Shown here piece by piece: positions 6,401 to 64,000 of a stretch of DNA of 64,000 bases. Under the pieces are notes generated by a model. That model saw nothing but the letters and a program-made list of their open reading frames with translations. It had not been told where the DNA came from and did no database searches. Source of the stretch: Antedon mediterranea (taxonomy: Eukaryota > Animalia > Echinodermata); contig NC_092676.1 in the NCBI RefSeq assembly GCF_964355755.1, forward strand, positions 9,835,888 through 9,899,887, read 5' to 3'. A program made the translations under genes and the position numbers. The first letter of the stretch is position 1; each line of letters starts with the position of its first letter.

Positions 6401-9400
6401 GAAACTAGAAAATAAAAGTAATAAAAAAAATAAATTTTACGTCTTTCTGATTAGATGTTTAGCAAGTTACCTTTTGGTATCTGAATCGTTCGTACAAATT
6501 GTTTATTGATCATTATTTTGATAACCAGTTTGATCCAGTTTTTGCATGCTAAATAGTCAAAAGAATCATGGATAAGATAATCAAATTCAAGCTTACTTTT
6601 TTAACAAACTTTAATATTGTTTTTATTTGCAGAGATATGAGTAACAACTCAATTGTACATATTGACGAAGGCACCTTTGTTGCAACAAAGAATTTAAACG
6701 ATTTGTAAGTGTTTATAAAATAATTAAAACAACGCGTTTAAAATATACTGTACACGCCATCCAAGCACTTGGATAAAGGTATTTACCACTAGAGTGTATA
6801 TCACAAATAACTGAAATAAGTTTTTATCATTTTTATTCATGATTTAGCGATTGAATATGTTACAATCTTCCAAAACGATTTGTTAATGGAAACTATAATA
6901 ATGGCATTATCCTAAACATTGCAAACATTTAATTCACAGAAACCTTGCGAACAACGAATTCCCAAAATTTCCCAGCATAGGTTTTGATTCACTTATCGAA
7001 TTGAAGGTGGCATTTAACGATAAACTACTGGATTTTCCACCGAAGGAAAGCTTCCCGGCTTTACTGACTCTAAGAGCGGCTTCAGCATACCATTGCTGTG
7101 AATATTTGAATAAACAAGTGGATCCGCTAGAACTGGAAGAAGAATATTCTTGGCTTGGGGGACACGAAAACGCTACAAACTGGTCTAATTATGGTTAGTA
7201 TTGTACTTATTTCGTTGGTGGTATTTACCGCACTGTATAAATGTATTTCATTTTATCAATGGCGTTAATACAGTGTATAAAGTGTACTCGAATATTCAGG
7301 CACAAGCGAGACAGTCTCTCTATTACTGTAAATGCGTACATTAGCAACCTCGAGTTATAAACACTGTAGTTTGTGTTGGTACTACTACAATAGAACAGCG
7401 TATAGATCAGCATTTTCAATGAGTGCGTAACATCGCTCAGAGCAGGGAAGAGTGAATGCATGGTACTCTTCCCTGCACAGAGGGCACAGAGTTTCTCAAG
7501 TTATTGTTTTTTGTTATTATGTTATTATATTCCAGTCGGTTTTTTTTGTGTCATATTTTTGTCTGTTCCAGCAAAAGAATTCTGTTAAAATCAATTAATT
7601 TCATTTTGTCTATAGGTAATTATGTGTATAAGTCTTTCGAGAGTTTCATGAGTTACTATGAACCATCGTATGAAGGGACCTACGAATCGGAATATGGACT
7701 ATCAAATCCCACGACACTCGAAGAAGATTCTCTCTTTGAAGATACACTTAAACGTGTGGGTGACGTAATACACAATAATATGGACGAAGACACGGTCAAT
7801 ATGGATAATTATGATGGATCAATGAATCGAGAATATTCATCTGCGATTGAATTTACAATAGAGAACATTGTAGATTGCAAGCCTATGCCAGGTTGGTAAT
7901 TATACAATATTCCAAATGCAACTAGATTTCTAGTACTGTACTGCATATCCATATCATTATGACTTTTCCGGTATCCATAGACAAATTCCGATGCCTATAT
8001 AATGGTTGGTTAAGTGTTTACTTATTGGGTCTATGATACAGACGTAAATGTGAAACGGAAGTTGCTTATGATACTGGACAGGGCAATGTGAGGTTTAAGC
8101 CTACAATCATTCTCTTGCCAATATTATCAATCGACGCCCGTAACACATTCTCAAAATTCTAAAATGTTATTTCCAATGCGTCATTACGAGCAATTTAAAA
8201 CGGTTTTCATATTCTTGTTGTGTTTTCACCTCGACGGTAAGCAATGGTGGGACTCAGTAAATATTCTCAAACACAAATCTTGGCATGAGTGTGTACTTAT
8301 ATGAATTTTATTTACAATTCTCGGGAGGGTCGGCACCAAAAAATAATTTACTTTCATCTGACATTGCCCTCTGGATGCTAATGTCTCGCCGCATTCATAT
8401 CAACCGTCAAATTAAAGGATTTCTAATAACTTATTGTTTACTTCCAGATCCGTTCTGGCCTTGTGAACAACTGTTGGGATCATTGCTGCTACGTATTGGA
8501 GTTTGGATTGTCTTTATAACTGCTATTATTGGTAATGCAACGGTCATCTTCGTGATTTGTGTAAGCAGAACAAAAATGGATGTACCACGGTTCCTTGTTC
8601 TTAATTTAGCCTGTGCTGACTTTGCGATGGGAGTATACATAGGAATATTAGCAATAGTCGACGTTATGACGATGCACGAGTTTCGGGAACATGGTCTTCA
8701 TTGGCAGAGAAGCAATGGGTGTAATGGTGCTGGGTTTATGGCTGTTTTCTCAAGTGAATTGTCAATTTACACTTTAACCGTTATTACTTTGGAAAGATTC
8801 TATGCTATACGTCATGCAGTTAATCTTAACAAACGTCTGAAGCTCCGAACAGCTGCTGTTGTTATGGTATTCGGTTGGATATTCGCTATGGTATCGGCGA
8901 GTCTTCCTCTGATTGGCATCAATAATTACCATCGTTATTCTGTCTGTCTGCCGTTTGAAACCCGTGACATTACAGCTTTAACTTACATTGCTACTTTGAT
9001 GATATTAAATGGATTTGCATTCCTTGTGATTCTATTGTGTTATCTGAGTATTTATCTTGCAATTCGTGGTTCTCATGCCTGGAACTGTAATGATTCGCGA
9101 GTAGCTCAGCGGATGTCGATTCTCATCTTTACTGACTTTATTTGTTGGGCGCCCATAGCGTTCTTTAGCCTTACCTCAGCGTTCGGATTGCATATCATAA
9201 AAATTCAGAGTGCCAAATTTTTAACAGTGTTCATACTACCAATCAACTCTTTCTTCAATCCATTTCTTTATACTATATTTACACAACATTTCAAGAAGGA
9301 TCTCAAGAAGATGTTACAGCGCTTCCTCTGGATACCGACACCAAAGATTCAGTACAACAATCGCTCAGCAAGTCACAGCGTTGGAAGACGCATGTCTCCA

Positions 9401-10375
9401 GCAAGCCATGACATGTCAAAGAGGTGGCATCATGAAAGTGACTCTGGATTAGGAAAGAGCCATCATGGTGAACCTCCAGTAGTGATTGTTTCAGTTCCTC
9501 TTGATCAACGGCAACATACTCCCAGATCTAGTCCTCAGTGTGCAACAACCGGTAGACCCAGAAGTCGTTTGGAGAGCGAGAGTACTATAGCAACAAGAGT
9601 TACTATAGAAAGTCGTCTGTCAACAACCATGCAAGATTCGTCCTGTTTTGAGACTTCCGATGATGAAGACGTACGAATGAATCGACGACGCAGTTCGGCG
9701 ATGCCTTTAATGCAAACATCACATGAACCGCAAATTACAGAAGAAGACGTCACTAAAATGTCTCCACTGACCCGACTTCGACATTTTTCTTTGTCTTTGT
9801 TGTCACCTCGAAGCGCAGATAAAACGCACGAAGCAAAAAATAAACAGTCAATTGGTTCGATTGATTCAGAAGTAGACCAGTATAATCCATCAGTATTCTC
9901 ACGGAAACCAATCCGCAACGCACGTTTATTTGATATCCGGGGTCCTTTTGAACGATCACGTGGGTCTTCAGAAGGTAACTGTTCTCCGACCGCAGATTGG
10001 GATAACTTAGAAGTTCGAACAAGAGCCAATTCATTACCAGAAAAAGGTAGAGCTGGTTCTTTACGGTTTAAATCGCCTCCAGCGACGTTAAAAATCAGAA
10101 AGGCAGGTGCTGCCAAGGGCGAAATGCATCGACATCCTAGCGAGATCCAACATCTTCTTCCACCAAGTGAGCTTCCTTCACCTCCATTGGCAAAACGTTA
10201 CACAAACAAAGTATGTCCATCGACCAATTTATCAACGGAGTCTGTTTGGCAGAGGCGGCCTAACGACATTTCAATCCTGCAATCTCAAATGATAAATTCG
10301 CAGTCTCCTCCATTCGCAGTGAGTACAAGAGAAACAATGAGAAGACTGGATGCCGCAAAAGAAACAACGTTATGA
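459..10375 (+). CDS. rk: Type-B leucine-rich-repeat GPCR (rickets/bursicon receptor-like, LGR4/5/6 group); 5' part lies upstream of the window
   Basis: Exons with AG/GT ends: 459-527, 2947-3090, 3915-3983, 4833-4904, 5368-5433, 6114-6257, 6633-6704 (66-144-bp LRR exons separated by phase-2 introns), 6940-7193 (LRR + AYHCC), 7616-7891 (hinge), 8448-10375 (PFWPCE + 7TM + long tail). TM motifs KMDVPRFL, ITLERFYAI..NKRL and IRGSHAWNCNDSRVAQRM match my recollection of insect rickets. More than 10 LRRs are already in the window. Confidence 0.9.
992..1624. mobile_element. Non-autonomous DNA transposon (TTAA-ended, Kolobok-like), copy 1
   Basis: Degenerate termini taagccccattccct ... agggaaggggtctttaa; about 550 bp is closely similar to 32796-33364, and a fragment lies near 19780-19850. 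Confidence 0.7.
4102..4243. mobile_element. MITE (Harbinger/Tourist-like)
   Basis: Imperfect TIR agctctgtctacactatcaaac ... acttggatagtgtagactct, preceded by TAA. Confidence 0.55.
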
Positions 10376-13719: not shown

Positions 13720-15830
13720 TATAGCAATTACACTGCTTTTTTTTATGGCAATAGCAAGTAGCAATTGCACCTCTATGTGTTTGTTATTTATGGCAATACC
13801 ATGAAGTAGCAATTGCACAGATATTGGTTTTCTATTTATTTATGGCTATTATCAAGTATAGAAATTGCACAGCTATTGGTTTGCTATTTGTGGCAATATC
13901 AAGTATAGCAATTGCAAGCTATTGGCTTACTATTTGTGGCAATATCAAGTATAGCAATTGTACAGCTATTTGTTTGCTATTTGTGGCAATATCAAGTATA
14001 GCAATTGTACATCTATTGGTTTACTATTTGTAGCAATATCACGTATAGCAATTGCAAGCTATTGGCTTACTATTTGTGGCAATATCAAGTATAGCAATTG
14101 TACAGCTATTTGTTTGCTATTTGTGGCAATATCAAGTATAGCAATTGTACAGCTATTGGTTTACTATTTGTGGCAATATCAAGTATAGCAATTGCAAGCT
14201 ATTTGTTTGCTATTTGTAGCAATATCAAGTATAGCAATTGTACAGCTATTGGTTTACTATTTGTAGCAATATCAAGTATAGTAATTGCACAGCTATTTGC
14301 TTGCTATTTGTGGCAATATCACGTATAGCAATTGCAAGCTATTGGCTTACTATTTGTGGCAATATCAAGTATAGCAATTGCAAGCTATTGGCTTACTATT
14401 TGTGGCAATATCAAGTATAGAAATTGCACAGCTATTAGTTTACTATTTGTAGCAATATCAAGTATAGTAATTGCACAGCTATTTGCTTGCTATTTGTGGC
14501 AATATCACGTATAGCAATTGCAAGCTATTGGCTTACTATTTGTGGCAATATCAAGTATAGCAATTGCAAGCTATTTGTTTGCTATTTGTAGCAATATCAA
14601 GTATAGCAATTGCACATCTATTGGTTTACTATTTGTGGCAATATCAAGTATAGCAATTGCAAGCTATTTGTTTGCTATTTGTGGCAATATCATGTATAGC
14701 AATTGCAAGCTATTTGTGGCAATATCATGTATAGCAATTGTACAGCTATTTGTTTGCTATTTGTGGCAATATCATGTATAGCAATTGCAAGCTATTTGTG
14801 GCAATATCATGTATAGCAATTGTACAGCTATTTGTAGCAATATCAAGTATAGCAATTGTACAGCTGTTGGTTTGCTATTTGTAGCAATATCAAGTATAGC
14901 AATTGCAAGCTATTGGCTTACTATTTGTGGCAATATCAAGTATAGAAATTGCAAGCTATTTGTTTGCTATTTGTAGCAATATCAAGTATAGCAATTGCAC
15001 AGCTATTTGTTTGCTATTTGTGGCAATATCAAGTATAGCAATTGCAAGCTATTTGTTTGCTATTTGTGGCAATATCATGTATAGCAATTGCAAGCTATTT
15101 GTGGCAATATCATGTATAGCAATTGTACAGCTATTTGTAGCAATATCAAGTATAGCAATTGTACAGCTGTTGGTTTGCTATTTGTAGCAATATCAAGTAT
15201 AGCAATTGTACAGCTATTGGTTTGCTATTTGTGGCAATATCAAGTATAGCAATTGTACATCTATTGGTTTACTATTTGTGGCAATATCAAGTATAGCAAT
15301 TGTACATCTATTGGTTTACTATTTGTGGCAATATCAAGTATAGCAATTGTACAGCTATTGGTTTACTATTTGTAGCAATATCAAGTATAGCAATTGTACA
15401 TCTATTGGTTTACTATTTGTGGCAATATCAAGTATAGCAATTGTACATCTATTGGTTTACTATTTGTGGCAATATCAAGTATAGCAATTGTACATCTATT
15501 GGTTTACTATTTGTGGCAATATCAAGTATAGCAATTGTACATCTATTGGTTTACTATTTGTGGCAATATCAAGTATAGCAATTGTACAGCTATTGGTTTA
15601 CTATTTGTAGCAATATCAAGTATAGCAATTGTACATCTATTGGTTTACTATTTGTGGCAATATCAAGTATAGCAATTGTACATCTATTGGTTAGCTATTT
15701 CAATTGCCAATATTCATATAGCAATTGTACAGCTATTTGCTTGCTATTTATGAACTATATCTGGATATAGCAATTGTACAGTTATTTTCTTGCAATTTAT
15801 GGCTATGCTATTTGTTGGCTAGTTTGCTAT
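13720..15830. repeat. Tandem satellite, 46-47-bp unit (about 45 copies), with 34-35-bp truncated units
   Basis: Consensus ctatttgtggcaatatcaagtatagcaattgtacagctattggttta; it degenerates at both ends. The spurious ORFs here recur every 140 bp. Confidence 0.95.
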
Positions 15831-16938: not shown

Positions 16939-17636
16939 ACTCCAAAATTTCCACTGTTTGGCAGGTCTTTAAATTGTTGTCTGCAGCATCACATTGACTG
17001 TTATTTGATTTGTTAATTTCACAAACTAGTTTTTGCAATTTGTTGGTTTACACTAGCACTTTCTTACCAAACTCGGAGTTTGCAAACTGTAGACTAGGCT
17101 TACAGTACAGCAAGCTTCCAAACCTATAGAACCACTGTTTCTTTGGTACTTCGTCTCATTTTAAGCACATGCCTGCCTGCTTTGTGTTTCCATGGTTTAG
17201 ATTTTCTAATGGCTTTCCCTTCTCAGATCTGTGGACAATTTTTCTCTGGTCCCAATGGTGTTGAATTCAATAAAACACAATCAATTGTCCTAATGCCATT
17301 TTCATCTGATCTGTCTATACAACTTGACCATTTCTTTGGTTTTAATAATTGGTACATCACTTCACAATATTGCAGATCTTAAACAAATTATTAAAAAAAT
17401 TCAGAAATTGTGTATTGTGTATACACCTCAATTTATGCTATTAGTATTATAAACACCCCTATTGTGAAAGGTATGATTTGTGAAAGGTATGATCTATGAA
17501 CAACAGTATTATTTTTCATCACTATACACAGAGTGTTGCTATTGATTCAGTAACAAGGTTTCACTATTTCTGACCATCATATTATATTAAACTCATACTG
17601 TTATTGATGTGTTAGTGTCTATGCAAAATTACCTGT

Positions 17637-20600
17637 TCAGAATGGTACTGCACTGGTTTCTGAGAATGCGTGTAGGTTTCCCATTTGAGTCATTCCACTC
17701 TGAATATGTGCAACATGCACCTCCACATTATTCTGGAAGCACCTGTCATCATAGATATAAAGATAAAATGGTAACAATGAATACAGTTCATAACAATGAA
17801 TACAGTTCATAACAATGAATACAGTTCATAACAATGAATACAGTTCATAACAATGAATACAGTTCATAACAATGAATACAGTTCATAAAAATGAAGAAAA
17901 TTACATACATTTTTAATTGGAGAACTAATCAAAACACACAGGAGGTCCAAAGTTCACAATATTAGTGAGTTTTAAGCAATTTTCAAATGTATTTCCTTCT
18001 AAATCTAAAAATGTTTTCAAAGGCCTTGATTTGAAATCCAACAAACTGTTTTAATTTAACAGTTAAACAGTTTTCCAAACAAACATGATATTTCACAAGT
18101 AACAACTGCTTTAACAGAGATGCCCATGTATTCAAAAAAGGATTTCTTATCCTCTGTTTTGCAACAGCCACCCAACAACTGTCATTTGGATATTCTAGTG
18201 TAGCGTCACCAGAATATAGAAAAAAAACCATGTGGTTCCACGGGTTGAAATTGACTTGTTTTTTACTGAAACATGTGTTTTTTAATGACTTTATTGAAAG
18301 TTTATTGTTGATACCACTGGCATACACATAGTAGTAGTTGTTGCACCAATGATGCACGCTAACAAATTATTTATAGCTTACGGTATATATTTTAAATTAT
18401 TATAGCATACTATATTGTTTGATACCGCTTTCATTAAAGTAGCAGAAACATGGGATCTTTGTGACCCATAAAGCAAGATTGACTACTTACGTAAAATTTG
18501 AAGGATCAATATTGTTCTTAATTTCTTGCAATGACTCATTTAATGACTGGAATCCATAGGAATTCAAATCTCCAGATGCCAGGTTCTGTTGAACAATAAC
18601 AATATAATAATTACAATTAGCTAAACAACTTTTTTAACAAAATCCATCCTACTATATATTTTACATATCCTTTAAACCCCAAAAATGAGTTTTCTTTTAG
18701 CTAATTTCTTTATCCAATTATTTGAATCGATTAAAATCACACTCAAACCAGACACCATATGTCAGTCCGTCCTCATATCAATTTTTTTTTAATATCTGAG
18801 TTTCAAAACACTGGGTTTTCAGGACCTCTGCCACCAGTAATAGAACATCTACATTCATGATACCACAGCGGATTTCCTCATCGAGTTTTACTTTCTTCAA
18901 GCTCAACTCAGCCATCAACTTTATTCACCATTCCCAGAGGATATTTGGTTTGTGGGGGGGGGGGGGGGGGGGCTATGGAAGTTCTTTGGACATGGTATAT
19001 TGTTCTTTGGTGGTGTATCCTAATTTGGGCGGTAGCACATACCCTTCGGTAAATATGTACTGTATTTACTTAAAGAATACTTGATTTACGGTTATCATTG
19101 AGAATTTTTATCAACAATTTTGGAACAAAGTTTTAGAAATCAATCTTGTAAAGTATAGCATCTCACCTTCACTTGCAACATAAGAGAGGTTAGTCTCGTT
19201 ATGAGGTCATTCAAATGACCACTCTTGACCGCTCGACCACCCAAGGCTAGATTGGCATCATGTACAATTTGGTTCGCTTCTTGGTCGCACTTTAACTTCT
19301 GTTCTATTGGTTGATCCATTGGTTCTAGACCCTGACCGGGAGCAATCTGCAATAAAAATAGTAGCATTTTAATTTATGAAAACTGTTCTGTCCAAAGAAT
19401 ATGAAATAAATGTATAATGCACTTGTCAATTGTATGACTCACTATACGACCCCCGGGAGAGGTGCGTCATGGGTGCGTCATTTACAAATAATTACTGACG
19501 CAGGGGTGCGTCAAAAAACCTAGATGGTACGTCACATCAATGAACAAGGTGCGTCAATGTCCGTCACTTTACCACCCACCATATCATAAACAACATGGTC
19601 ACAGTGCGTCAAAATGGGTGCGTCATGGTCACCTAAAGGTAAGTCACCTTTTTGACGCACGGGTGCGTCATGGTATTCAAAAGTATGACGCACATCGGAC
19701 AAATGACGCACCTCTCCAGGGGGTCGTATAGTGGGTCATACAATTGACAAGTGCATAACATGAGGCCATCTATGAGAGAACATTCGACGCGAGCTACTTA
19801 TTTATGTAGTGCATTGCTCTTTTTATCATAATTAAACCATAAAATGTTTAAAACAATTTAAATTAAGGCCTCTTTCTTGGCAAGAAATTAATATTGTGCT
19901 CTAAAAACTAAAAGTCTAAGAAACCTCTGCTAAAAGATTCATATATCAAACCAGGTGTGTGCACAAATTCCATAACACAACATACATTGCATTCGTAGCG
20001 TGCTTTCTTTGGAGACGTGGAATCATTACTTTTTTCTTGCGAGACATCGACATCGTTCGAGTCAACATGATCATGATCCTCCTCAAATTCAGTCGAAATG
20101 CTTGTTTCATGTCCATTGCTGTCGCTAACAAAAACCTGAGTTCTTCGTTTTGGAATATAATTCTTTCTACGCTTTGATTTCATACACAAAAGCATGCGAT
20201 TGTTGGAACATATGTCTTTAAGCTTAGGCCCAGAGATAATCTCTTCATCAATGTCTCCAGTCGTCAGTCCACCGCGTGAAAGCGTCTGTGGCTGCGACGA
20301 CGTTGTTGGTCTCAACAGCGGCGGTGGAGCGGGTAGGCCTAGGCTACACTCTTCTTCTACTGCTTGTTCTTCGGCTATTTCAGCCGCCATACTTATTCCT
20401 ACACTTCCCAATTTTTATTTATATTCATATATTCAATGCAATACATATTTCTTTGTTGCTAAAAATGTTCAGTTATCCACCATCATGCAAACTTCTTTTG
20501 TTGTTGTTTTCCGCAGTCCGCACCTCCTAACAGCAGCAATTACCAGCCAGACGTTCTCTTTTCTGTGCGTCTGTATCGATCTCAATCATAAAATTAGCAC

Positions 20601-23600
20601 GGCTATGTAGAGTCTGGACGTAAGAGTATAGCTCCTATTATGAGATGGCCGGGTACGTGTGTGGGGAAGAGGCCTACGTGACGGCTGGTTTTTTTTTCTC
20701 GAATTAGATCACGTCAATTTTGATATAAAATGTTTATTTAGAACATTGCTGATATTGTATTTTTGTTTGTAAGTACTATTAAATTGTATACAATGTTTAA
20801 CATCGTGTACAACAAACCAATATTGTGTAAATTATCTTGTGATTAAACATGGAATCATGTTTAATCTTTTTAGGCCCAGCTACACTCACGATTGATTGGT
20901 AAACACACAGTGCAGTGTGCATGAAATAAAACGACACTGCAGCCTAGCTAGGCCACCATCTAATTGTATACAGTACCTCCATGTCTATTAGGCCGGGGTA
21001 GGCCTAGACCCTACCAGGGTAAATAAATGATGTTTGCATTATTAATGAGAGACTTATAATTGACTTTTGTTTGCTAGGCCTAGAGTAGATAGGAAGAGTC
21101 TAAATGTCATCCGTCAGGGCACCTATTTATTTTACGCATGCGCACTTAATTCCTTGGATAGATGGACCGCAATTAATGGATCGTATTTTATTTACCATTT
21201 GCACAATTATTCTATTATTACAGTGTAAGTGCAAAGCGATGGTGAAAGTTGTTCTCGTTTTACCTTTGTAATTTTCATGCAATTTCACTACAAAACCATG
21301 ATTCATAATTTTTCCTTACTTATGCAAAATTTTAATTTTCGAATAATCATAATTTGGTTATATTTAGTAATTTTATTGCGTCACGGCACCTAGTTAGCTG
21401 TATGCACTGAGTTAGCATACGTTGTTCGGTTATCTCTATGTATGAACGAACGGTGTGAATTCACTGTGAATCTGGTAGTAGTGCCCTGACAGTGACAGAT
21501 GATACGTATTAATTGTCATCCGTCAGGGCACCTAGTTAACATACACGTTGTTAATTCACTGTGTGTAACTGGTAGTGCCCTGACGGATGATAAGTATTAA
21601 TTGTCATCCGTCAGGGCACTTATGTAGTTAGTTAACATACACGTTGTTAATTCACTGTGTGTAACTTGGTAGTGCCCTGACGGATGATAAGTATTAATTG
21701 TCATCCGTCAGGGCACCTATATAGTTAACATACACGTTGTTAATTCACTGTGAATCTGGTAGTGCCCTGACGGATGATAAGTATTAATTGTCATCCGTCA
21801 GGGCACCTATATAGTTAACATACACGTTGTTAATTTACTGTGAAACTGGTAGTGCCCTGACGGATGATAAGTATTAATTGTCATCCGTCAGGGCACCTAT
21901 AATATATATGTTATAGTTAACATACACGTTGTTAATTCACTGTGAAACTGGTAGTGCCCTGACGGATGATCATTATTAATTGTCATCCGTCAGGGCACCT
22001 ATAATATATATGTTATAGTTAACATACACGTTGTTAATTTACTGTGTAACTGGTAGTGCCCTGACGGATGATCATTATTAATTGTCATCCGTCAGGGCAC
22101 CTATATAGTTAACATACACGTTGTTAATTCACTGTGAAACTGGTAGTGCCCTGACGGATGATCATTATTAATTGTCATCCGTCAGGGCACCTATATAGTT
22201 AACATACACGTTGTTAATTCACTGTGAAACTGGTAGTGCCCTGACGGATGATCATTATTAATTGTCATCTGTCAGGGCACCTACTGTATATAGTTAACAT
22301 ACACGCGTTGTTAATTTACTGTGAAACTGGTAGTGCCCTGACGGATGATAAGTATTAATTGTCATCCGTCAGGGCACCTATAATATATATGTTATAGTTA
22401 ACATACACGTTGTTAATTCACTGTGAATCTGGTAGTGCCCTGACGGATAAGTAGTAGTAATGACTGTAGTATATATTATGGCATGCCAGTCATTGTTTTA
22501 AATACCCTAAACTAACTTGCTTTAATTGTATACACCCCTTTGTTTTTTCTTCTTTTTGAAATAGGTTGAAAAACAATGCCGCCACATTCAAGGATAAAAT
22601 CAGAAAACAGTGAGACAAGAATATATGTAAAATTTATAAACAAGTCACCTAGAAATGTTCGAGTAATCTGGCTTAACTATCAAGGGCAACCTGTATGGCG
22701 GCCATATAACAACACGGCTGGCCTATCGCCAAATCAAACTTTTAACATCTATACATATATAACGCATCCATGGATTTTTAGGGATAATCTTACGGGCGAT
22801 AAAATAGTCTATAAGGAAGGATTGACAGAAAAACAAGTGTATTATCCCAAGGAATTGGCAGAAAATCAAGAATATAATGTAACCTTGGTGTTGCCAATTT
22901 ATAGCCTCAAAGAGCGGTGCCTTCAAGTGATGAGAAGACTTGTACGACAACAATCTGTGCATTCGCTTGAAATTCCACAGACTTTAAAAGATGAAATTCT
23001 GAGACCAGTTTTTCGCATAAATGATACTTAAATGCTATTTTTTAAAAATACAATTATTAGCAACCTTGCCACCATGATTAATTTGTAAATACTATGGAAT
23101 GCTGAGCATGTTATAGCCGAGGTTCTCAACAAACAGCATGTGAGGGCATTTCATATGGCCCGCTAAAGATGCATTGTGTCTCAACAACAAAGATTAATCA
23201 AATCAGCTTTTGAAAAGGCCATTTTGTAGTTTTAATACAGTTTATCAAACATGAGTAGAAAAAACAAGTTTTGACTTATAAAAAGACAAATGAATTATTT
23301 TAACCAAGACATTTTTTTAATTTTTTGCTTTAAATTACAGTTTTTTTCAGGTACATAATTTTTTATTCAACTGTATTATGTGACATTAAATAGCATATTT
23401 AATCAACAAATTAAAAACGATTATTTTTTTATGGGGACAATACCAAAAAAACTGCTTATCTGGACCCCAATGTTATGTGTAAAATCCCACTAAAACTGCT
23501 AAAAACCTATGTGTTAACATACATTTTTGTACATATTAAATCATGTTTTGCAATTTATTTTCAGATATTTATTATTTACAGTACTTTCATTTTTGTTTCT

Positions 23601-26600
23601 TGTTCCGCTGCAAATTTTTTATTAATTAAGCAAAAATTTTAATTTTGTTCAAAACATAACTTAAGACATTACAATCACCATAATGAATGTTTCTTTACAA
23701 AATTGGTAATTTATTATTAGTCAAAACTTTGTGAAATAAATTGTATACGTGTAAACTTACCAAATTATTGTTATTAAGTAGGCCTACAATGTACTACTGT
23801 ATTGAAGGAACATGGCTAGTGTACTAGTAACTAACAATCTTAATCTGCTGAGGCTACATAGATATAATTCTATTTTTAGGGATCAGATACTAGTACGTCA
23901 TTTCTTGAATTTATATTATATATTATATTAATAAATTCATTATTTACTTCACGGTCAAGTTATTGATGTATTTTTAATGTTATTTATTGAGATGCCAAAT
24001 AAATGAATGAAAGAAAGAAAAGTATGTCCTAAAAACGACTCTTGTGTAAAGATAAATATAAAGTATAATATAAAATAACCATTCATTGATAAAGGGTCTT
24101 TTCTTGCCAAATTACAAAATATGTCCTACAATAAGGCCAACAGTAGTTCAGCAAGGTCACATGATCAGGTGTGGCCATAACAATTACTGTACATTTCAGA
24201 AAGGAATTAAGCCTATACTATAATGAATGAAAAGTTGTGCACCCTAGACTAAACTCCTAAGTCGTCATACAGTCCCAATAATTAGACTATAAATCAGCCT
24301 ACTGTATGATTTACAAACTGAAAGAAATTAATGCACATGACAGGATGTGCTATTGTATACTTACCAATCCAATAATCTTTGAAAAATCTTACATGAAGTC
24401 AATGAAGCATTTATTGTTTACAGCAAAAAATGTAATGCTTCAAAACCCTCACAAGAAATGGAAATGACTTTGTGTTCACTATGACAAGTCTTTCTCTTCT
24501 TAAAAAAACAAACCAATCTCCTCACCCAAGATGTTTAATGTTTAGGAAACCTATTTCAAGGGCTTTGAAAATACTATTGAATTTTCGAAAAATGTTTATA
24601 ACTTTCCAAAACCTGTGGCCGCATTTATTTTTATTTAAAGTTTAAATTGATATGGTACATCTAGCATAAAACAGTCGTAATTGTATTCCAAGTCTGGAGA
24701 AAACTTATTTATCATAAAGGCCAATTTACACTGACAAATGGTAACAGTAAGTGGTAAATGATAAGTGAAAAAAAAAATAGAATCTATGTTATTTCATGAC
24801 TATTTACACACGGAACAGGCGGGCAGAGGATAGATACATGTTCTATGTGGGACAAGCCAAATGGTTTTCCACTTACCTTTAGTTACCACTTGTCTGTGTA
24901 AATTTTCCTTAAAGGTGTTCTTCCACAAGGCGATATGTATAATAATACAAATTAAAATCCAGGTTAACTGTAAAATTATAGCAGAAATGAGTTACTACAT
25001 ACCTCTTGACAGTACTCTTGGACACCCAGTAGATATCGGTTCAAGTCTTTGTTCAGTCTCTCTAATTCCAAGACATTGCTGGCATACATCCTTTTAAATT
25101 CCATCTCTATCATGATTTCCATTGATTTCTAAAAAAATACCACAAACAATTAAACAAACAAATCAAAACTTTATTTATTACCTGTAATGTGCAAGAGTTA
25201 AATAATAAACTTATAAATAACATGTCATTTTAGGTTGGCATTTATCAATACTTTGCTTATTTTTTAGAAAAAGTGCTTACTTTTAAGCAAATATGTTAAG
25301 GTTGTTTATCAAACCGAAAATAATTTTTGGCAAATGCGCAAAATTTTACACACAAGGGCAGCAAATTAAGTCTAAACTAGGAATCATCTGCACAATTGGG
25401 TAAGGGGACTACGTTGTTTAAACCAACATAGCTCACTACTCTAGATTACAATATCTTACTTGTCTTTCAGCCTCTGCATTCATTTCTCGTAACTTCTGGA
25501 TTAAATCCTTTTTATGAACCAAAATTTTTGACAATTTAGTCTAAAAAAAAAAATAAATACATAAATTGGATTAAAAACAAAACATGACTGACAATTTTTG
25601 CAATATAACAATATTTCCTATATAAATTGTACTAAGCCTAGCCCAAAAGGAATTTATATTATTAATTCAATCTATAGTACAGTATTGCACATTTTCTAAA
25701 AGCTGTGTTTTTATTAGGTTTGTGAGTGAAGTCTAAGGAACCCAAGAGCCTATCTAGTGTCAATCCATTGTGTGCTGTGTAGACAATTTTGAATCCTCAT
25801 ACCATTCCAACAAATACATGACTTACGACTTATATAGGATAGGAAACCCAGGCTTACTAAACCAAGTCTCATACAAGACTGTACTGGCCGTCAGAAATTT
25901 TAACCCAGGATGACCACCAAACCACAATTAGTGCAAAACTTACCACAAAAAGTAAAAATTTGATGGGAAAACCACCAAGTTTCTTTTCTTTCATTGCCTG
26001 GAACTTGCCTCTCATTGGTGACAGACTCATAACAGGGTCATGCTCTAGACCAGGTGATTCCAATAGACCAGCTGTTATTCTGAAAATTACATCAAATCAA
26101 AATCTCAATTTATAAAAACAAAATATAACACTTATTATATAATGCCTAAATAAATTCCTGTCATTTGATTGGACAATTGTGGGTCACATGGCGTGCAATA
26201 GTATGCACTATTAAACGATCGTTTAATAGTACTTTTTTAAAGATTTTTGTGTATGAAAAAAAAAAACGTTTCGCGGATGAAAAAAATCTATTATACAAAA
26301 AGTACTGTGAAATACAACAGCGCCACCTGTTGTCCTGCCTCTGTTTGTAAAGACCACCGCGAGATATGCAACAGCAGCAGATTTTTGTGTACGATTTGGA
26401 GATATATATGTACTAATTTCATTCAAAAAGGCATTTAAATTAGCTTTAGATCGTTTTTAGGAGTTTGATTAATTAATGGGGACATCCATACAAGACGTGG
26501 AATCGTTGGACAAACCATAATTAGCCTAGATAAGTTCCAATTGTCTGTCGAAGTTTTGCCTTTCAGCCAAGCTAGTACAACTACCAGGTCTAGCCTAGCT

Positions 26601-29600
26601 AGAATGAGTGAATGAAATGTAGGCCTCTTGGCTAGGGCTACCTTTTATTTGATTCAAATGACAGGAATCTATTTAGATGTTATATAAAACAAATAATGAA
26701 TGTTTTATATTCGTGTAATGGTACAAATAATGGCATTTGGTGAATGATGAAAGGTTATATCAACGAGGCAACTCATGCCATTATTTGTACCATTACACTC
26801 ATAAACATTCATTATTTGTATACTATATAACGGCTAAATAAATTCCTTTCGATTGATTGGACGATTGTGGGTCACATGAACGTGAAATAGTACTTTTTCC
26901 ATGTACGAAAACAAATCTTTTGCATACAAAAACAAAACTGAAATTCGATAGCAGCATCGTCAGTTGTTATGGGAACGGAAGCAGCGACACACATGATGCG
27001 ATCCCTCATTGACAACAAGATCAGAAAAATGACAATAATTTACACAAAAAAAGTACTATTACATGATCGTTTAAGTACTATTGCACACCATGTGCCAAAA
27101 TCGTCAAATCAAATGTTGTACTTTTATCAATAAACTCACCTTGATGGAGAGAAGAAGTTTGCCCTTGGTCTGTTGTAGTTCTTTGTAAACGAAGATAGAG
27201 GAATTGTTTCTTGTTCTTCATTGCTCTATGTAGAATAAACACAAACAGTTGTGGTATTTAATGCAATGATACATTTTCAGCTACCAGTGACAAGTTCATA
27301 TTCGATTAATAGACAAGTTTAGAAAACAAGACAATTGTGGGCCATCCCATTGATGTCTGGTATTGTTTTATTACACACCCATTATGCATAAATAAAGTCC
27401 CCAGAATTTGGCTGCGGAGATGCGACATTACAAAAGGAAAAACTAAAGGCCTATTTATACTACAGAAGATAACGATGAACAATAAGTAGATATACACACA
27501 GCTTTCATCCTAGTAGATCTATAGGACAACAATTTATGCTGTTGATGAAAATATTATTTTTTTAAATCCAATCAAATTACATCATGATCAATAAGAAAAA
27601 TTAAAAAACGTCATAATATTAACGCCATCTGAGTGGGTTTGTGAAAATATTATTTTCATTAAAGAAATCATAATAGTTATCCTATAGTTCCCAGTTGAAA
27701 TTTGTTGATTTTGTTTTCTGTAGGAAAAATGTCTATTTATCTACTTATCGTCAATTGTTATCGTTTTAGTATAGATAGGTCTTAAAGATCAGTTTTTGAA
27801 TATGTACAGACAGTGTGGCACATGATGTGAATCAACCAATCAAAAAGGAAGATTACATTTGTGTTTTTGTTGATACTGTACTTACCAGCACTTCCGTATC
27901 TGGGATAGTGTGAATGCCAAGGCTAGGCCTGTCAAAGGTTATCCTGTACGTTGCATTTGCAGGATCAACTGCATCGATTTGGCCAGTGAACAAACCATCT
28001 ACAGGTGATCGCAGTCGGGCTAAAAAATTTAAGAATTTGAATACTTTTACAAAACTTTGTACAGTACAGTGATGTGTACATCAGTGACACCTCTATTGTT
28101 AGTAGTTGAATAGAGATAATAACATGGACAACAAACAAACAATTCGCAACAATAATCCTTGGAGTTACTCCCAAGTTATTTACCATCTGTCAATTTTTAG
28201 TATGTACTGAAAAAACAATAACAACCCTTCACATCTTTACAACTTGAGATCCTGAAATGAAAGGGTCAAGTCTTCCAAGCAAAACATAGCTTTCGAGACT
28301 AAAAGTCATTTTAAAGACACATGTATGTGCAGAATGGCTGCTGAGACATAGTTGAGTGAAAAAGAAAGGTCTCTATTCCATGTATAGCGCTTCAAATACA
28401 TTTTGATATACAGTAGAGAATCTTGTCAGATTCTATTCTCTGAAAACTGGTACTCTCATAAAATATTGGTTCAACTTTAATTTTACTAAACTGAAAGTAA
28501 ATTCTAAAAAAGCAGATAAATTATTTATTTATTTATTTATTTTATATATTTAGGCAAATTGCCAAGGATAACCATAAGCAAATTCAATCACTATCCTTCT
28601 TAAAGGTGGCAATCCGTTCACGAGACAAACATATACACACAATGCTCTACATAAACAAAGTCTTTATTACAAGTAAATACAATCACCTGTTACTTTAGTA
28701 CCAATGACTAGTTGTGAGGGTATCTCTTCTGGTAGATCTTTGAGCTCACTTGGGTCTAGTTCGTGGCTTTTTCTCTGTTGTAATAACCGTATCTTCTGAC
28801 GTTTGGTCTGCAATGCTGCTCTCTCCTCAGCAAAAAACGAAGATGAACATCTAAAAATAGAAACATTTAATTTCACAATGGTAATAAATCACCACTTTTT
28901 TTAATATACTATACATTTTATACTATACCCCTTTTTGAAAAAACCAATACCTATCAAAAACATCTATTCTGAGGACTAGAATGTATTTTGATGTCAACAC
29001 GGAAATGGTTTCACATGTTTGTACCAAAGTAACAATTTATAATTGCAATTACGGTGTGAATTGGGGTATATGGGTGGTTGTACTGGAATCTCATACAAAC
29101 TTGTATCAACAAATGCTCTGTATTCATGTAGAATATTTATTTTAAAATCAACACACGAATTACAGGATGAATAATTGTGCTATTAATTGCCTCAATCTCA
29201 TCAACAAATTTGGGAGTAGAGCAGAAACAGGTATGAGTTACAACCCTGGCACTACTGTAGGTCAAGATTGCAACCAGGACCTTGGGATTGTATTTCCTAA
29301 TCTTGTAAAAGACTGTTTTATAAATTATAAAATGATACCTTCTAGGCTTGCCCATCAGTCTTCTGATTGTGATCCATTCTATGCGTGTCAAATGGCGTGT
29401 CTTCAATTGAGGAAACGACTCCTTCAAACATACACAAAAGTCATTTTCACCTTCAAATAAAGCTCTAAATACAAGATACAATGCAATTTGTAATTTAGAA
29501 TCGATACTGAAGGTCGCCTAAATTTTTTTAGTTTTTTAACTTTACAATACTTAGTGTCAGGCCTGCTTAGTGTTGTATATTCTGGTACAGCCGCTCCATA

Positions 29601-32600: not shown

Positions 32601-35125
32601 TGTCAGTTGAAATCGGTCATGCTTGAAATCGGTCGTGCTTGAAATCGGTCGAGATAAATCAACATCCGGTATTTTGTATGGAGCACTGCTAGAAACACTT
32701 TTTCTATTAGTTACATTTGAATAATTTTTTAATACAGTAAATAGAAATGTTCATCTCCTATTTTATATTAATTTGTGTTTTCATTTTATCTTTACTATTG
32801 AGATAACTTTTTAGTCTGTAAACTGTTAAAAATGTGAAAAATAAGATGATTCTAGTAATTTTAGCGGCCCGCTATAAATCCCAAAATGCATTGCGCGCGG
32901 ATTGATATTTTTTTTTCTTCTGTAATTCACCCACTTTTCGATCGATCGTGAGGCAAAAACAAATGGAAGACTCCTAACTTTTCGGCGAAAATACCGGGTT
33001 TTTCCCAATTTGTATCAACGGAGTCTGGCAAAAATAGAAAGATAATTAATGTAGCAACTATTACGTCAAGCTAGGTATATAACTAGCGTACGATGTTCGT
33101 ACGTTACCGATGTTTACCAGCTAGGCCTAAAAAACTAAGCCTAGCTAGGCTACAGTAGGCCTAAAGACCGTCCACGAGGTCATTCGCCGCGAGCTACTTA
33201 CAGTAGGTAGTGCATTGTTTCTCACTTTTTATCATTTTACCAGAAAACGTACATTTAAAACAAGGAATGACCTGGTTTGATGTTTTTAAAGTAATATATA
33301 ATATGTAATGATTATGTATTATTTTTACAAAATGTCACAAATTTTTTAGGGAAGGGGTCTTTAAGTTAATAATAAAATAAAAAATAAACAATTTAATTAT
33401 TGATTTATTTTTAGCAAATAAAAAATATCCACATAAATTAAATAATCTACTAGTTCCTAAAAAATATCAATTAAAGGAAAATGTATATCCTGCTCTCATG
33501 CATCCCGCTCCATAAAAAAAAACGCTATCGATTTCAAACGTGACTGATATCATCAAAAGTCTAGCGGTGCACCATACAAAATGCCGGAATTTGATTTTAT
33601 CGCGACCAATTTCAAACGCGACCGATATCTTAATAAGCCAAAGACACTACTAGTACTACTGTAGTTTGGCCTAGAAGGTATACTGTACAATTTACAATAA
33701 CAATTTGTAGCACGAAATTCGTCTAATAATAAAATAGCACTCTGGGACTATGTATGTGCACTACAGTACTAAACCCATAGATAGCTAGTTACCCTCTCTC
33801 TAGGTCTACCCAGATAGTATTTTAGCAGACTTAGGTAGGCCTAGTTTTAGTTTAGTTAGTTTTTTAGGCCCTAATCTAAAGACTAAATAATTAATTAAAA
33901 GTTTAAAAAAACGCTGTGGCTAAAGATACGGTACCGTATTCTAACTTCTGTTTACTAAAGGTACGGTAAAATTGCATTACGTCATAATCAGCCAATGGGG
34001 TGCTTGTACGTGTGTGACGTCATCGTATAAGGACTTTTGATTTTTTTTCATATCGCGTCTGTTGTTTGTATGTAGAGAATTCCTGTCGGCGGCGCCAGGC
34101 TGCATGGATGTGTGTGCGCTGATGAGGGTTAAATTATTTTTATTCCAAATGGCCTTTAGGCCTATATTTTTTATTAAACTTTGTTTACAATGGTGACCAT
34201 AAACAACAAGCAAATGCGGGCCCTCAAATACTATGATTTTTAGACAGTAGCCCAGGTCTGAGTCACAGAAATCAGCGCACACATGCAGCTGGCCCCAGCC
34301 TGGCATCGCTTTCCCTACACAAACAAACTCATATAATGAGGTTATAGTACGTAGTAAGTAGGCCCCGAAGTAGGCCTAGCCTAGGCCTCTTTTGAAACGG
34401 TTTTCTGTATTCTAGAATTAAAATCAACATGTTTTGCCTTTTCAATAACAATAACAGACGTAGGCTGCATTTAGTTTTTGTCACACACGACGGCGATAAT
34501 ACTCATAGCGATAAATGAAGCAAAGAAAATGCGGTTGATCCCCGGGTTGATCACTGTTTTCGCGATATGAAAAAAATCCAAAGTCCTTATACGATGACGT
34601 CACATACGTACCAGCACCCCATTGGCTGGTTATGACGTAATGCAATTTTACCGTACCTTTAGTAAACAGAAGTTAGAATACGGTACCGTATCTTTTAATA
34701 GCCACGGCGTTAAAAAAAAGTTTTTTTTTATTATAATAGGTATACTAATTAATAGGGAGGCCTAGGCCTACTTAATAAGCCCAGGATAGAGGGGGTTGTA
34801 ACTGTATAATAGATTCTAGAAAATCAAACTGGCTTAACTAGCTAATAGCTAGGCCTGGACTCCTACACTACACATGACATGGTCCGGCTACTTCACAATT
34901 TTATCGCCGCCAGACATCCAATCAGAACGGGTCTGGGGTCGCTAGGCCTAGACTATAGAAAGCAATAAAGGCATTGTAAACCCTACGCATTTTAAATAAT
35001 GTAAGTCTTAACTGAATATATGAAGATTCTTATGTAATGTTATACAGTAGAAATTATGCTTTAAAAGTTAATTTTAAAAGTTTATTTGTGTGTGTATCCT
35101 TACTTTCTACCGACGTGTCCGCCAT
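17637..35125 (-). CDS. LIN9: LIN-9 (MuvB/DREAM core subunit; DIRP, Tudor-like and C-terminal coiled-coil regions), complete
   Basis: 14 phase-compatible exons: 35125-35104, 32391-32306, 31722-31579, 30211-30075, 29464-29339, 28850-28687, 28019-27886, 27225-27140, 26079-25944, 25540-25460, 25128-25003, 19346-19167, 18585-18491, 17742-17637. Hallmarks: LKNLLKLPKAYKWCIYEWFYSNLDK, CLKESFP..EW..IRRLMGKPRRCS, DGLFTGQIDAV, CFQNNVEVHVAHIQSG. Confidence 0.97.
17772..17895. repeat. Minisatellite, 19-bp unit x ~6
   Basis: (aacaatgaatacagttcat)n in the last coding intron of LIN9. Confidence 0.95.
19417..19756. mobile_element. MITE with ~55-bp TIRs and internal TGCGTCA repeats
   Basis: atgcacttgtcaattgtatgactcactatacgacccc..gagaggtgcgtcat mirrored at ~19702-19756. 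Confidence 0.8.
19986..20390 (-). CDS. Candidate alternative first coding exon (135 codons) able to splice in frame to LIN9 exon 19346
   Basis: agtATGGCG start; 405-nt stop-free, GC-richer frame (MAAEIAEEQ...SPKKARYECN) ending at a phase-0 GTATGT donor. The next LIN9 acceptor (cag|ATT GCT) is phase 0. No transcript evidence. Confidence 0.5.
20560..20774. promoter_or_regulatory. Putative bidirectional promoter and VHL non-coding first exon
   Basis: CpG-richer patch between the divergent 20390 ATG and a + strand GTAAGT donor at 20769; TACGTG at 20654 and 20675. Confidence 0.4.
21105..22450. repeat. Tandem array of ~90-102-bp hairpin-containing units (21481-22450, about 10-11 units), apparently derived from a TIR-bounded element at 21105-21497
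   Basis: GTGCCCTGACGGATGA, 13-nt loop, TCATCCGTCAGGGCAC in each unit, plus a ttaaca..tgttaa mini-hairpin. Confidence 0.95.
22576..23031 (+). CDS. VHL: von Hippel-Lindau protein (pVHL), single coding exon, nested antisense in a LIN9 intron
   Basis: F.NKSPR.V..IWLNYQG, TY.THPWIFRD (beta domain, hydroxyproline-pocket Trp/His/Trp) and LPIYSLKERCLQV (BC box). Polypyrimidine tract plus AG acceptor at 22563-22564, 11 nt before the ATG. Confidence 0.95.
   Translation: MPPHSRIKSENSETRIYVKFINKSPRNVRVIWLNYQGQPVWRPYNNTAGLSPNQTFNIYTYITHPWIFRDNLTGDKIVYKEGLTEKQVYYPKELAENQEYNVTLVLPIYSLKERCLQVMRRLVRQQSVHSLEIPQTLKDEILRPVFRINDT
23163..23445. mobile_element. Degenerate copy of the TTAA MITE also found at 42369-42694, in the predicted VHL 3' UTR
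   Basis: Shared blocks ttttgctttaaattacagtttttt, tattatgtgacattaaa and terminal ggggacaata. Confidence 0.55.
24716..24912. mobile_element. MITE
   Basis: taaaggccaatttacactgacaaatggtaa ... ttaccacttgtctgtgtaaattttccttaa. Confidence 0.5.
27445..27785. mobile_element. MITE
   Basis: aaggcctatttatacta..gataacgat mirrored by ttatcgttttagtatagataggtcttaa. Confidence 0.45.
30782..31412. mobile_element. Tc1/mariner-pogo-type MITE
   Basis: Perfect 25-bp TIR ccgtactgacgcgggtataagccca, TA on both sides, repeated subterminal cgggtataagccca. Confidence 0.85.
31870..31971. repeat. Tandem duplication, ~51 bp x2
   Basis: ggagtctgttaggtgagtgactgcactcacacacctcaaaagac.aggcct occurs twice. Confidence 0.9.
32605..33630. 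mobile_element. Long-TIR element containing a nested, 5'-truncated copy (32796-33364) of the element at 992-1624
   Basis: (ttgaaatcggtc)x3 ... ccggtattttgtatggagcactgctaga mirrored at ~33560-33630. Confidence 0.65.
33910..34711. mobile_element. Non-autonomous element with ~150-bp TIRs in LIN9 intron 1
   Basis: 33910-34057 and 34561-34711 are near-perfect reverse complements. Confidence 0.85.
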
Positions 35126-35164
35126 CTTGACGCGCCTATTTTCAAAGGTATTGCATTGTGGGAA
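35118..35164 (-). promoter_or_regulatory. LIN9 proximal promoter motifs: YY1-like, CDE/CHR-like, ZNF143/Staf-like
   Basis: CCGCCATCTT over the ATG; CGCGCC-4 nt-TTCAAA at 35131-35146; TTCCCACAATGCA on the minus strand at 35152-35164. Confidence 0.5.
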
Positions 35165-53417: not shown

Positions 53418-54525
53418 GTTTTGTAACCCACACTATGTAACCACTTAATTAATAATAGAGAGTATTTTTAACACTGAAAGTTAACTTATTCAAACACTAT
53501 AGTTTTGCTTTAACAACAAAAATACATTATGGACATATGACTTTCAATTTGTACTGTTTATTAGATAGAATGTAGGTATAGGTAGTATACAGTAAATCCC
53601 TCCTTTGGGACACTCCCATTAAGGGGCCACTTTTCAATGACCTGGACGAGGAGAAATATATGTTTTAACACTACAACCAACCCTTCTTCAGGGGACACCT
53701 ATTATTTGTTTGGGTCCCGAAGGTGTCTTATTAATGGTTTTACAGTATTTAAAAATAACGTTAGTTTGCATACAGAGTTCAGGATACAGCCATCTATTTT
53801 AAAAAGGTAATCAAAACAGTGCAATTTACTAAACACTTTGTAATTAAAAACATTTTTGATCTGTTTGCATATTTTATTATTTATTATGCTTTTAGCTTTG
53901 CTGACGTTGATATCGAGTTTCCATATTGATTGGAGAAGTTATTTATTTTATTAAAAGCATTCAATAACATAACTGTATTATGAATTTGTGTTTGTTTGTG
54001 TTCAGTCTATCCGAAATATGTTGTTTTAAGTTTTAAAAAGACCCCGTAACATAAGGATAGGTGATTCATGTCTCTTATCAGTTGTAGCAGCGCATACCAC
54101 AAGCTAAAAAAAAACAACAATTATCTTAATTTTATTTGTAGAAGAAATTACCATTTCATTATGGAAAATGACTCCCTAATCAAAGCGAGCACCTGCACTG
54201 GTGTATCTGATTGTGCATTTAATATGAGCCAGATACCTTCCTACCTCACTTCCTCGCTGGTTATTATATACAATGACAAACTGTGGATTATTGATTGTCG
54301 TGTAAAAGCTTTTAAAAAGTTGACCTCAACGTCAAAGCAAGTTCAGGATATGAGTAGAATCAATTTATTGGAAGTAAGGCCTCTCTACAGAAACAAAGGA
54401 AATTATAGTGTCTGGTAGCGCAGTAAGGACATCCCCTGAGCAAGTTGATATGAACTTACAGTAGTTGAAAATTACATCAACACAACAAGTTTCCAATTTG
54501 TTTTTGAATTTTAACAGTTTTTACA

Positions 54526-63841: not shown

Positions 63842-64000
63842 CTGTAAAATATACCAGTGATAATGTTTAGCTTCATTAGGATACATAAACTACTAATTTA
63901 TCATGATAATCAGGATGGATAAACCGATAGATTATCTAGACTATTATAATCGCTTGTTGTTGCTAAAATTACTTGCTTTAGAGGTCAGATCGAATTATTA

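What the first reader, a model, noticed from the sequence alone, without database searches (positions are those of the whole stretch)
19167..20774. Hidden internal first exon: a C-terminal-only LIN9 isoform sharing a divergent promoter with nested VHL
Seen: inside LIN9 intron 19347-25002, a GC-richer 135-codon ORF starts at agtATGGCG (20390) and ends at a phase-0 GTATGT donor (19985), matching the phase-0 acceptor of exon 19346. It has no polypyrimidine tract upstream, so it looks like a first exon rather than a cassette. About 380 bp away on the other strand is a GTAAGT donor that could join the VHL acceptor at 22564. Inference: one bidirectional promoter drives VHL and a ~260-aa protein made of a new N-terminus plus the last ~126 aa of LIN9. 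That protein would lack the DIRP/Tudor regions and most of the LIN52/B-Myb-binding coiled coil, so it could modulate MuvB/DREAM and be co-regulated with the oxygen-sensing ligase. I know of no description of such an isoform.
Basis: partly seen in the sequence, partly recalled or inferred. Interest (0 to 1): 0.78.

Follow-up and report, generated by a model that had tools for sequence, protein, structure and literature searches.

The report
Short LIN9 isoform from internal exon
A feather star splices a second RNA from inside its LIN9 cell-cycle gene; it likely encodes a short protein keeping only the LIN9 domain predicted to grip the DNA-binding subunit LIN54, so it would act as a decoy or adaptor for the MuvB/DREAM cell-cycle complex.

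Summary
The hidden exon is real. In the one RNA-like run laid (X1), a contig joins 19986 to 19346 across a GT-AG intron, alongside the normal 25003-19346 junction. The exon contig runs unbroken to 20644. No upstream AG gives an in-frame cassette, so this is a first exon. Its 135 codons score like true exons (0 of 804 background windows reach it), it is single-copy, and no homologue was found. The host is a crinoid: the LIN9 exons match Antedon mediterranea LIN9. The predicted 261-aa product keeps LIN9 415-540 (human 416-542). That is the C-terminal four-helix bundle reported to contact LIN54 and the nucleosome acidic patch, and it lacks essentially the whole LIN52/B-Myb coiled coil. Best reading: a nuclear LIN54 decoy or adaptor (inferred, untested). 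The VHL half is not shown. VHL is nested on the opposite strand, but the 20768-22565 junction could not be tested and that donor scores poorly. Limits: one RNA run, no protein evidence, no cross-species conservation. Verdict: new variant of a known kind (internal-promoter isoform).

The parts
19986..20644 (-). Alternative first exon of LIN9 as far as seen in RNA: leader 20644-20391 plus coding part
   Evidence: One 656-nt X1 contig, 19986-20644, no loose end at 20644, ending exactly at the donor
19986..20390 (-). 135-codon novel N-terminus: acidic-basic-acidic, basic motifs KRRK (73) and SPKK (126), mostly disordered, predicted beta-hairpin 83-101
   Evidence: no homologue
19347..19985 (-). 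GT-AG intron of the short isoform (639 nt); also seen retained
   Evidence: Joint 19346-19986, skips 639, ends CT..AC, depth 33.7; unspliced record 19755-20015, depth 18.1
19417..19756 (.). High-copy MITE-like element with 61-nt terminal inverted repeats inside that intron; absent from at least one haplotype
   Evidence: I1; very high depth in DNA runs; X3 record 19 runs 19415 to 19755 with about 12 letters between
19167..19346 (-). LIN9 exon shared by both isoforms (LIN9 415-474; human 416-475): linker and first two helices of the C-terminal domain
18491..18585 (-). LIN9 exon (475-506)
17633..17742 (-). Last coding exon of LIN9, stop at 17639-17637, followed by a 3' UTR intron 17632-17378
25003..25128 (-). 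Canonical upstream LIN9 exon (373-414), the end of the coiled coil; competes with the new exon for acceptor 19346
   Evidence: X1 loose end at 19348 matches 25005-25032 at 27 of 28 letters
20645..20768 (.). Likely promoter zone of the short isoform; three RCGTG cores at 20655, 20676 and 20710; no CHR or E2F-like site between 20391 and 21050
   Evidence: promoter role inferred from where the RNA contig ends
20769..20774 (+).
22565..23031 (+). VHL coding exon nested in the LIN9 intron (ATG 22576, 151 aa); in-frame TGA at 22567, so any upstream exon joined at this acceptor is non-coding
35123..35146 (-). Start of full-length LIN9 (ATG 35125) with TTTGAA (CHR-like) and GGCGCG just upstream

Best explanation
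An exon inside a late LIN9 intron is transcribed and spliced onto the last three LIN9 coding exons; it likely starts at its own internal promoter and likely makes a 261-aa protein predicted to bind LIN54 as a decoy or adaptor outside the full MuvB complex. Shown: the splice, the exon's extent and its coding character. Inferred: translation from the strong-context ATG at 20390, and nuclear import through the new basic motifs, since the retained domain has no such motif. Also inferred: the product carries the intact four-helix C-terminal domain but no RBBP4/LIN37 module (DIRP/Tudor) and no LIN52/B-Myb/pocket-protein module. It would therefore compete with full-length LIN9 for the C-terminal helices of LIN54 and either titrate LIN54 away from MuvB or hold CHR promoters with a LIN54 that can neither form DREAM nor recruit B-Myb. 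My odds: spliced first-exon RNA 0.93; translated 0.75; acts through LIN54 0.55 overall.
For: Joint 19346-19986 with GT-AG ends in X1. X1 behaves as RNA: exon records at depth 83-105 against 4.9 for intron records, three GT-AG joints. The three DNA-like runs cross 19986 unbroken at flat single-copy depth. 0 of 18 AGs between 20391 and 20644 give an in-frame, stop-free, phase-0 cassette. Coding score is in the true-exon range. 0 listed variants in the 405-nt ORF against 16 in 2421 nt of single-copy non-coding sequence (P about 0.08, weak). The junction lies at the domain border: exon 19346 begins at human residue 416. PMC8792015 gives the MYB-binding domain as 333-421 and the C-terminus as 428-542. 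A low-confidence model ends the long helix at 414 and places four helices after it. PMC9424243 reports the CTD as a four-helix bundle crosslinking to LIN54 635-749 and docking on the acidic patch. PMC8386835 shows mouse LIN9 341-559 binding the LIN54 paralogue MTL5 and LIN9 carrying it into the nucleus. Rough depth arithmetic puts the new junction at about a third of spliced joins into exon 19346.
Against: Only one RNA run, held as contigs: strand, start site and level cannot be read directly, the junction has 30 letters on its shorter side, and depth is a poor measure of expression. No protein evidence. No homologue or cross-species conservation found. Five upstream ATGs lie in the leader below 20644 and could suppress translation. 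The donor is weak (4.2 against 5.4-10.8 for 12 correctly placed LIN9 donors) and the intron is also retained at depth 18.1. Published binding data use longer fragments (300-542, 341-559) or crosslinks plus a model, so sufficiency of 416-542 for LIN54 binding is not shown. LIN9 CC-CTD with LIN52 alone does not bind nucleosomes (PMC9424243 section 9), so acidic-patch docking alone is unlikely to matter.
Confidence: 0.55

Rival explanations
1. One reading: one bidirectional promoter at about 20650-20750 drives both VHL (plus) and the short LIN9 RNA (minus), so the two are co-regulated, possibly by hypoxia.
For: Head-to-head layout; the short RNA reaches at least 20644; VHL has a clear acceptor 11 nt before its ATG and so needs an upstream UTR exon; three RCGTG cores within 60 nt, one of only four such clusters in the 64-kb window.
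Against: The 20769 donor is not among the top 15 of 188 GT sites. One RCGTG and the 20652 donor are removed by a 6-nt deletion seen in two of the three DNA runs. The motif cluster was noticed after the fact. VHL's start could lie anywhere in 20645-22564.
Confidence: 0.35
2. The RNA is a by-product of divergent or cryptic transcription from the VHL promoter that happens to splice into LIN9, and yields little or no functional protein.
For: Weak donor, partial intron retention, upstream ATGs, no homologue.
Against: A strong frame-specific coding signal that fades at the donor (0.308 in the exon, -0.007 in the read-through tail, negative in all three leader frames), strong Kozak context, phase match, and a cut at the domain border. 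No listed variants in the ORF.
Confidence: 0.15
3. The exon is mainly a separate small gene (160 aa, stop at 19908-19910) or the remnant of one, and its splice into LIN9 is secondary; the function lies in the new N-terminus rather than in LIN54 binding.
For: Unspliced record at depth 18.1, above the 4.9 of other LIN9 introns; confident beta-hairpin 83-101 in the N-terminus (pLDDT 80-88).
Against: The spliced record is deeper (33.7). The 25-codon tail has no coding signal. The retained form appears to run on into exon 19346 (X1 depth 18.1 also at 19386), leaving its stop upstream of three introns, which from general knowledge invites nonsense-mediated decay. No relative among 1.84 billion representatives apart from one spurious repeat-protein hit.
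Confidence: 0.1
4. The exon is a cassette exon of full-length LIN9, or a transposon fragment or retrocopy.
For: It lies in a phase-0 intron that also holds a MITE and a tandem array.
Against: An in-frame stop lies eight codons before the ATG; 0 of 18 AGs allow a cassette; the contig is unbroken to 20644; depth is single-copy in three DNA runs; no Pfam family passes its cut-off.
Confidence: 0.02

Closest known systems
LIN9 (Mip130/Aly family), scaffold of MuvB/DREAM/MMB
   Same: The last 126 aa are LIN9's own C-terminal domain, identical to Antedon mediterranea LIN9 415-540 and aligned to human 416-536.
   Different: No DIRP, Tudor or coiled coil, so by published mapping it cannot scaffold RBBP4, LIN37, LIN52, B-Myb or p130; it has an unrelated 135-aa N-terminus (no similarity to LIN9, E 34).
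Internal-promoter truncated isoforms acting as antagonists, such as deltaNp63/deltaNp73 and ICER from CREM (recalled, not from a call)
   Same: An intronic first exon replaces the N-terminal modules and keeps one interaction domain.
   Different: Those add a few residues and keep a DNA-binding or dimerisation domain. Here a long (135-aa) new N-terminus is put on a protein-binding domain of a scaffold. Antagonism is untested.
LIN9-MTL5 (tesmin) nuclear import in mouse spermatocytes (PMC8386835)
   Same: The LIN9 C-terminal region binds the C-terminal helix of a LIN54-family protein and LIN9 brings it into the nucleus.
   Different: There it is full-length LIN9 within a MuvB core; here it would be a dedicated CTD-only protein with its own basic motifs.
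Nested gene on the opposite strand (VHL inside a LIN9 intron)
   Same: Ordinary nested arrangement; VHL beta domain and box are intact.
   Different: The host gene has an internal first exon facing away from the nested gene; a search for VHL with LIN9 and bidirectional promoter found 0 papers.

Membership tests
Alternative first (internal-promoter) exon isoform | Exon spliced to downstream host exons at canonical sites | tested here: met
   Joint 19346-19986, GT-AG
Alternative first (internal-promoter) exon isoform | No upstream acceptor joining it to earlier exons | tested here: met
   Contig unbroken to 20644 with no loose end; 0 of 18 AGs give an in-frame cassette; contigs drop rare variants
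Alternative first (internal-promoter) exon isoform | Own capped transcription start site | not testable with these tools
   Only contigs were available; needs CAGE or 5' RACE
Alternative first (internal-promoter) exon isoform | Translated and under selection | tested here: inconclusive
   Coding score met; variant depletion P about 0.08; no orthologue to compare, no protein data
LIN9 family (full MuvB scaffold) | DIRP and Tudor domains | tested here: not met
   Encoded by exons at 30209-27886, upstream of the new exon
LIN9 family (full MuvB scaffold) | LIN52/B-Myb-binding coiled coil (human 333-421) | tested here: not met
   Isoform starts at the equivalent of human 416
LIN9 family (full MuvB scaffold) | C-terminal four-helix domain (LIN9_C) | tested here: met
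   (TM 0.80 by query to a LIN9 cluster)
LIN54-binding decoy or adaptor | Binds the LIN54 C-terminus without the coiled coil | not tested
Bidirectional promoter pair with VHL | Two divergent start sites within about 1 kb | tested here: inconclusive
   Minus-strand RNA reaches 20644; VHL 5' exon not located
Transposon-derived exon | Multi-copy sequence or transposon protein similarity | tested here: not met
   Flat single-copy depth in three DNA runs at 90% likeness; no family or homologue

The most novel reading that the evidence does not exclude
Crinoids, and perhaps other echinoderms, have a dedicated 'mini-LIN9' that pairs with LIN54 to form a CHR-binding complex independent of Rb-family proteins and B-Myb, with a new disordered effector N-terminus. 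It is transcribed with VHL from one HRE-containing bidirectional promoter, which would wire oxygen sensing directly into MuvB cell-cycle control.
Probability: 0.12. Interest if true: 0.82.

Novelty: new variant of a known kind. Interest (0 to 1): 0.52.

Why it matters
MuvB is treated as a fixed five-subunit core that switches only by exchanging pocket proteins and B-Myb. A natural protein that keeps just the LIN54-contacting domain would add a way to regulate the core by subunit competition. It also offers a ready-made reagent to test whether LIN9 421-542 alone binds LIN54, which so far rests on crosslinks and an AlphaFold model (PMC9424243). I found no such isoform in five LIN9 literature searches (listings only), nor a separate short LIN9 protein among the 23 candidates. 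Importance is capped by evidence from one species and one RNA run.

Tried and rejected
No whole genome is held for this window, so genome-wide and cross-species tBLASTn were not possible. Homologue searches for the new N-terminus were blank. These were: 608 word-index candidates of 238-2000 aa; the ESM Atlas, with low recognition; phmmer over 1.84 billion representatives, 1 hit, a tandem-repeat protein rejected as spurious; JGI metagenome contigs, 0 of 594 candidates; exact look-ups, 0 of 3. These blanks are weak evidence on annotation, because this window's VHL was also missing from the collection. A suspected likeness between the new N-terminus and LIN9's own N-terminus was rejected. The Atlas feature search for LIN9-CTD-like clusters without DIRP gave no usable hit. 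Rfam found 0 matches in 17000-25200. X1 has no contig cover at 20645-21050, including the proposed VHL exon; this is not counted as evidence, since two ordinary intron stretches also lack cover. No listed holder was on record as RNA; X1 is judged RNA from its spliced joints. X1's 0.54 word share was considered as a hint of VHL expression and dropped as uninformative. The donor matrix is rough: 13 sites, one of them misplaced by my coordinate. For the variant count I left out rows inside the MITE and the repeats beyond 21050. Both AlphaFold models are low-confidence (mean pLDDT 39.8 and 56.2), so no fold search was run. No complex was predicted, as no LIN54 sequence was at hand. Earlier scan findings returned nothing. 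One search listed no crinoid paper mentioning LIN9 among the 12 of 55 shown.
Full report
Observation. The window holds a LIN9 gene on the minus strand from ATG 35125 to the stop at 17637. Compared exon by exon with the public Antedon mediterranea LIN9 (P0008, 540 aa), 521 of 525 residues match, and the 4 misses are intron residues that I included at one exon edge. The 60-aa exon 19346-19167 is 85% identical to Anneissia japonica LIN9. The host is therefore a feather star. The intron 19347-25002 contains VHL on the plus strand (22576-23031, 151 aa) and, on the minus strand, the 135-codon frame 20390-19986 ending at AAT|GTATGT.

More than chance. A coding model built from 16 exon pieces of this window scores the frame at 0.308 bits per codon. 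True exons score -0.02 to 0.53 in leave-one-out tests. The other five frames score -0.08 to -0.62, 0 of 804 background windows and 0 of 2000 shuffles reach it, and no ATG-ORF of that length occurs in 49,684 background nt. The signal drops to -0.007 in the 25 codons after the donor and is negative in the leader.

RNA evidence. Five runs hold the stretch; none is on record as RNA. I laid four, then X1 alone at 99% likeness. X1 behaves as RNA: exon records at depth 83-105, intron records at 4.9, and three joints, all with GT-AG ends. One joint is 19346-19986 (639 nt skipped, depth 33.7, 30 letters on the shorter side), exactly the predicted junction. A loose end at 19348 matches 25005-25032 at 27 of 28 letters, so the canonical junction is used too. 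Depth arithmetic gives about 57-61 for the canonical junction, which puts the new one at roughly a third; contig depth is only a crude guide. The exon contig runs unbroken from 19986 to 20644 with no loose end. An in-frame stop lies eight codons before the ATG, and 0 of 18 AGs in 20391-20644 give a phase-0, stop-free cassette. So it is a first exon with a leader of at least 254 nt. The three DNA-like runs cross the donor unbroken at flat single-copy depth, which argues against a transposon or retrocopy; their joint table was cut (36 rows not shown). An unspliced record (19755-20015, depth 18.1) shows that the intron is also retained, in keeping with a weak donor. Tables 3 and 4 list 0 variants in the ORF against 16 in 2421 nt of single-copy non-coding sequence (P about 0.08; MITE and distal repeat rows left out). 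That is a weak hint of constraint.

The predicted protein. It is 135 new residues plus LIN9 415-540, 261 aa in all. The new part is acidic-basic-acidic with KRRK at 73 and SPKK at 126; these resemble nuclear-localisation and CDK motifs as recalled from general knowledge. It is predicted to be mostly disordered with one beta-hairpin at 83-101. No homologue was found, and it does not resemble LIN9's own N-terminus. The retained part starts at human residue 416. PMC8792015 (passages seen) places the LIN52/B-Myb domain at 333-421, a helical C-terminus at 428-542, RBAP48/LIN37 binding in 1-300, and LIN54 binding in 300-542. PMC9424243 (passages and sections 9 and 11 seen) describes the CTD as a four-helix bundle that crosslinks to LIN54 635-749, was modelled with it as 421-542, and docks on the nucleosome acidic patch. 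PMC8386835 (abstract and passages) shows mouse LIN9 341-559 binding the last helix of MTL5 and LIN9 importing MTL5 into nuclei. PMC5550918 (passages) calls the LIN54-family C-terminal HCH a protein-interaction domain. My own model of crinoid LIN9 is low in confidence (pLDDT 39.8) but ends the long helix at 414 and puts four helices at 428-535. The splice therefore cuts at a domain border and keeps one module whole.

How it likely works. Shown: exon, splice, coexistence with the full-length form. Inferred: an internal promoter near 20645-20750; translation; nuclear import by the new basic motifs, as the CTD has none; binding to LIN54 in competition with full-length LIN9. Without DIRP/Tudor and coiled coil the protein could not bring in RBBP4, LIN37, LIN52, pocket proteins or B-Myb, so it would uncouple LIN54 from DREAM and MMB, or escort LIN54 alone. 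The main LIN9 start has a TTTGAA and a GGCGCG within 21 nt of the ATG, while 20391-21050 has no CHR-like hexamer. This hints at different control, but TTTGAA occurs 1.5 times per kb here. Against: five upstream ATGs in the leader, intron retention, a single RNA run, no protein data, and no proof that the CTD alone binds LIN54.

The VHL link. VHL needs a non-coding upstream exon if it uses the 22564 acceptor (in-frame TGA at 22567), and the layout is head to head. But the junction could not be tested. The proposed donor is not among the top 15 of 188 GT sites in a rough matrix, whereas 20652 and 20619 score well and would make the two 5' ends overlap. Three RCGTG cores sit at 20655-20714, one of four such clusters in the window. 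They match the HIF element core (recalled) but also ATF/CREB and E-box cores, and one is removed by a polymorphic 6-nt deletion. I rate the shared promoter at about 0.35.

Comparison and novelty. The kind is known: an intronic promoter yielding a truncated, potentially antagonistic isoform (deltaNp63/73 and ICER, recalled). It is not a member of the full LIN9 scaffold class, since DIRP, Tudor and coiled coil are absent. I found no LIN9 CTD-only isoform in the listings, none linking VHL and LIN9 promoters, and no separate short LIN9 among the 23 candidates. The three A. mediterranea RefSeq accessions in the cluster share one 540-aa sequence. The library lacks most subscription journals and the protein collection lacks even this VHL, so absence is provisional.

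Verdict. A real alternative first exon of crinoid LIN9 giving a domain-precise C-terminal isoform; likely a LIN54 decoy or adaptor; VHL co-regulation unproven. New variant of a known kind; interest 0.52.

Noticed in passing
window 19417-19756: MITE-like element with 61-nt terminal inverted repeats and internal GGGTGCGTCA repeats; very high copy; absent from one X3 haplotype and apparently from X1's unspliced record, so a polymorphic insertion.
   Followed up: partly
window 17378-17632: An intron in the LIN9 3' UTR begins 4 nt after the stop codon; spliced in X1.
   Followed up: yes
window 21493-22448: About 10 tandem copies of a 90-nt unit containing a near-perfect palindrome, just upstream of the VHL acceptor.
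   Followed up: no
window 20653-20658: A 6-nt deletion polymorphism in X2 and X4 removes a good plus-strand donor and one RCGTG motif.
   Followed up: partly
window 35123-35146: CHR-like TTTGAA next to GGCGCG just before the main LIN9 ATG, suggesting LIN9 may be a target of its own complex; the hexamer is common in this AT-rich DNA.
   Followed up: no
window 2870-10372: Leucine-rich-repeat G-protein-coupled receptor gene on the plus strand with a long Ser/Arg-rich tail, judged from the translation by recall.
   Followed up: no
window 13750-15770: Long degenerate tandem array of about 35-nt units downstream of LIN9.
   Followed up: no
window 46379-50700: Lys-rich exons resembling an SPT2-type chromatin protein (by recall), with a 33-nt tandem array at about 49500-50400 next to a retroelement fragment.
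   Followed up: no
window 54508-63867: Collagen-repeat plus C1q-like genes on both strands, and a 463-codon reverse-transcriptase-like ORF at 62146-63534 (by recall).
   Followed up: no
window 26100-27050: Two similar dispersed-repeat copies in LIN9 introns (about 26180-26340 and 26860-27050), seen by eye.
   Followed up: no
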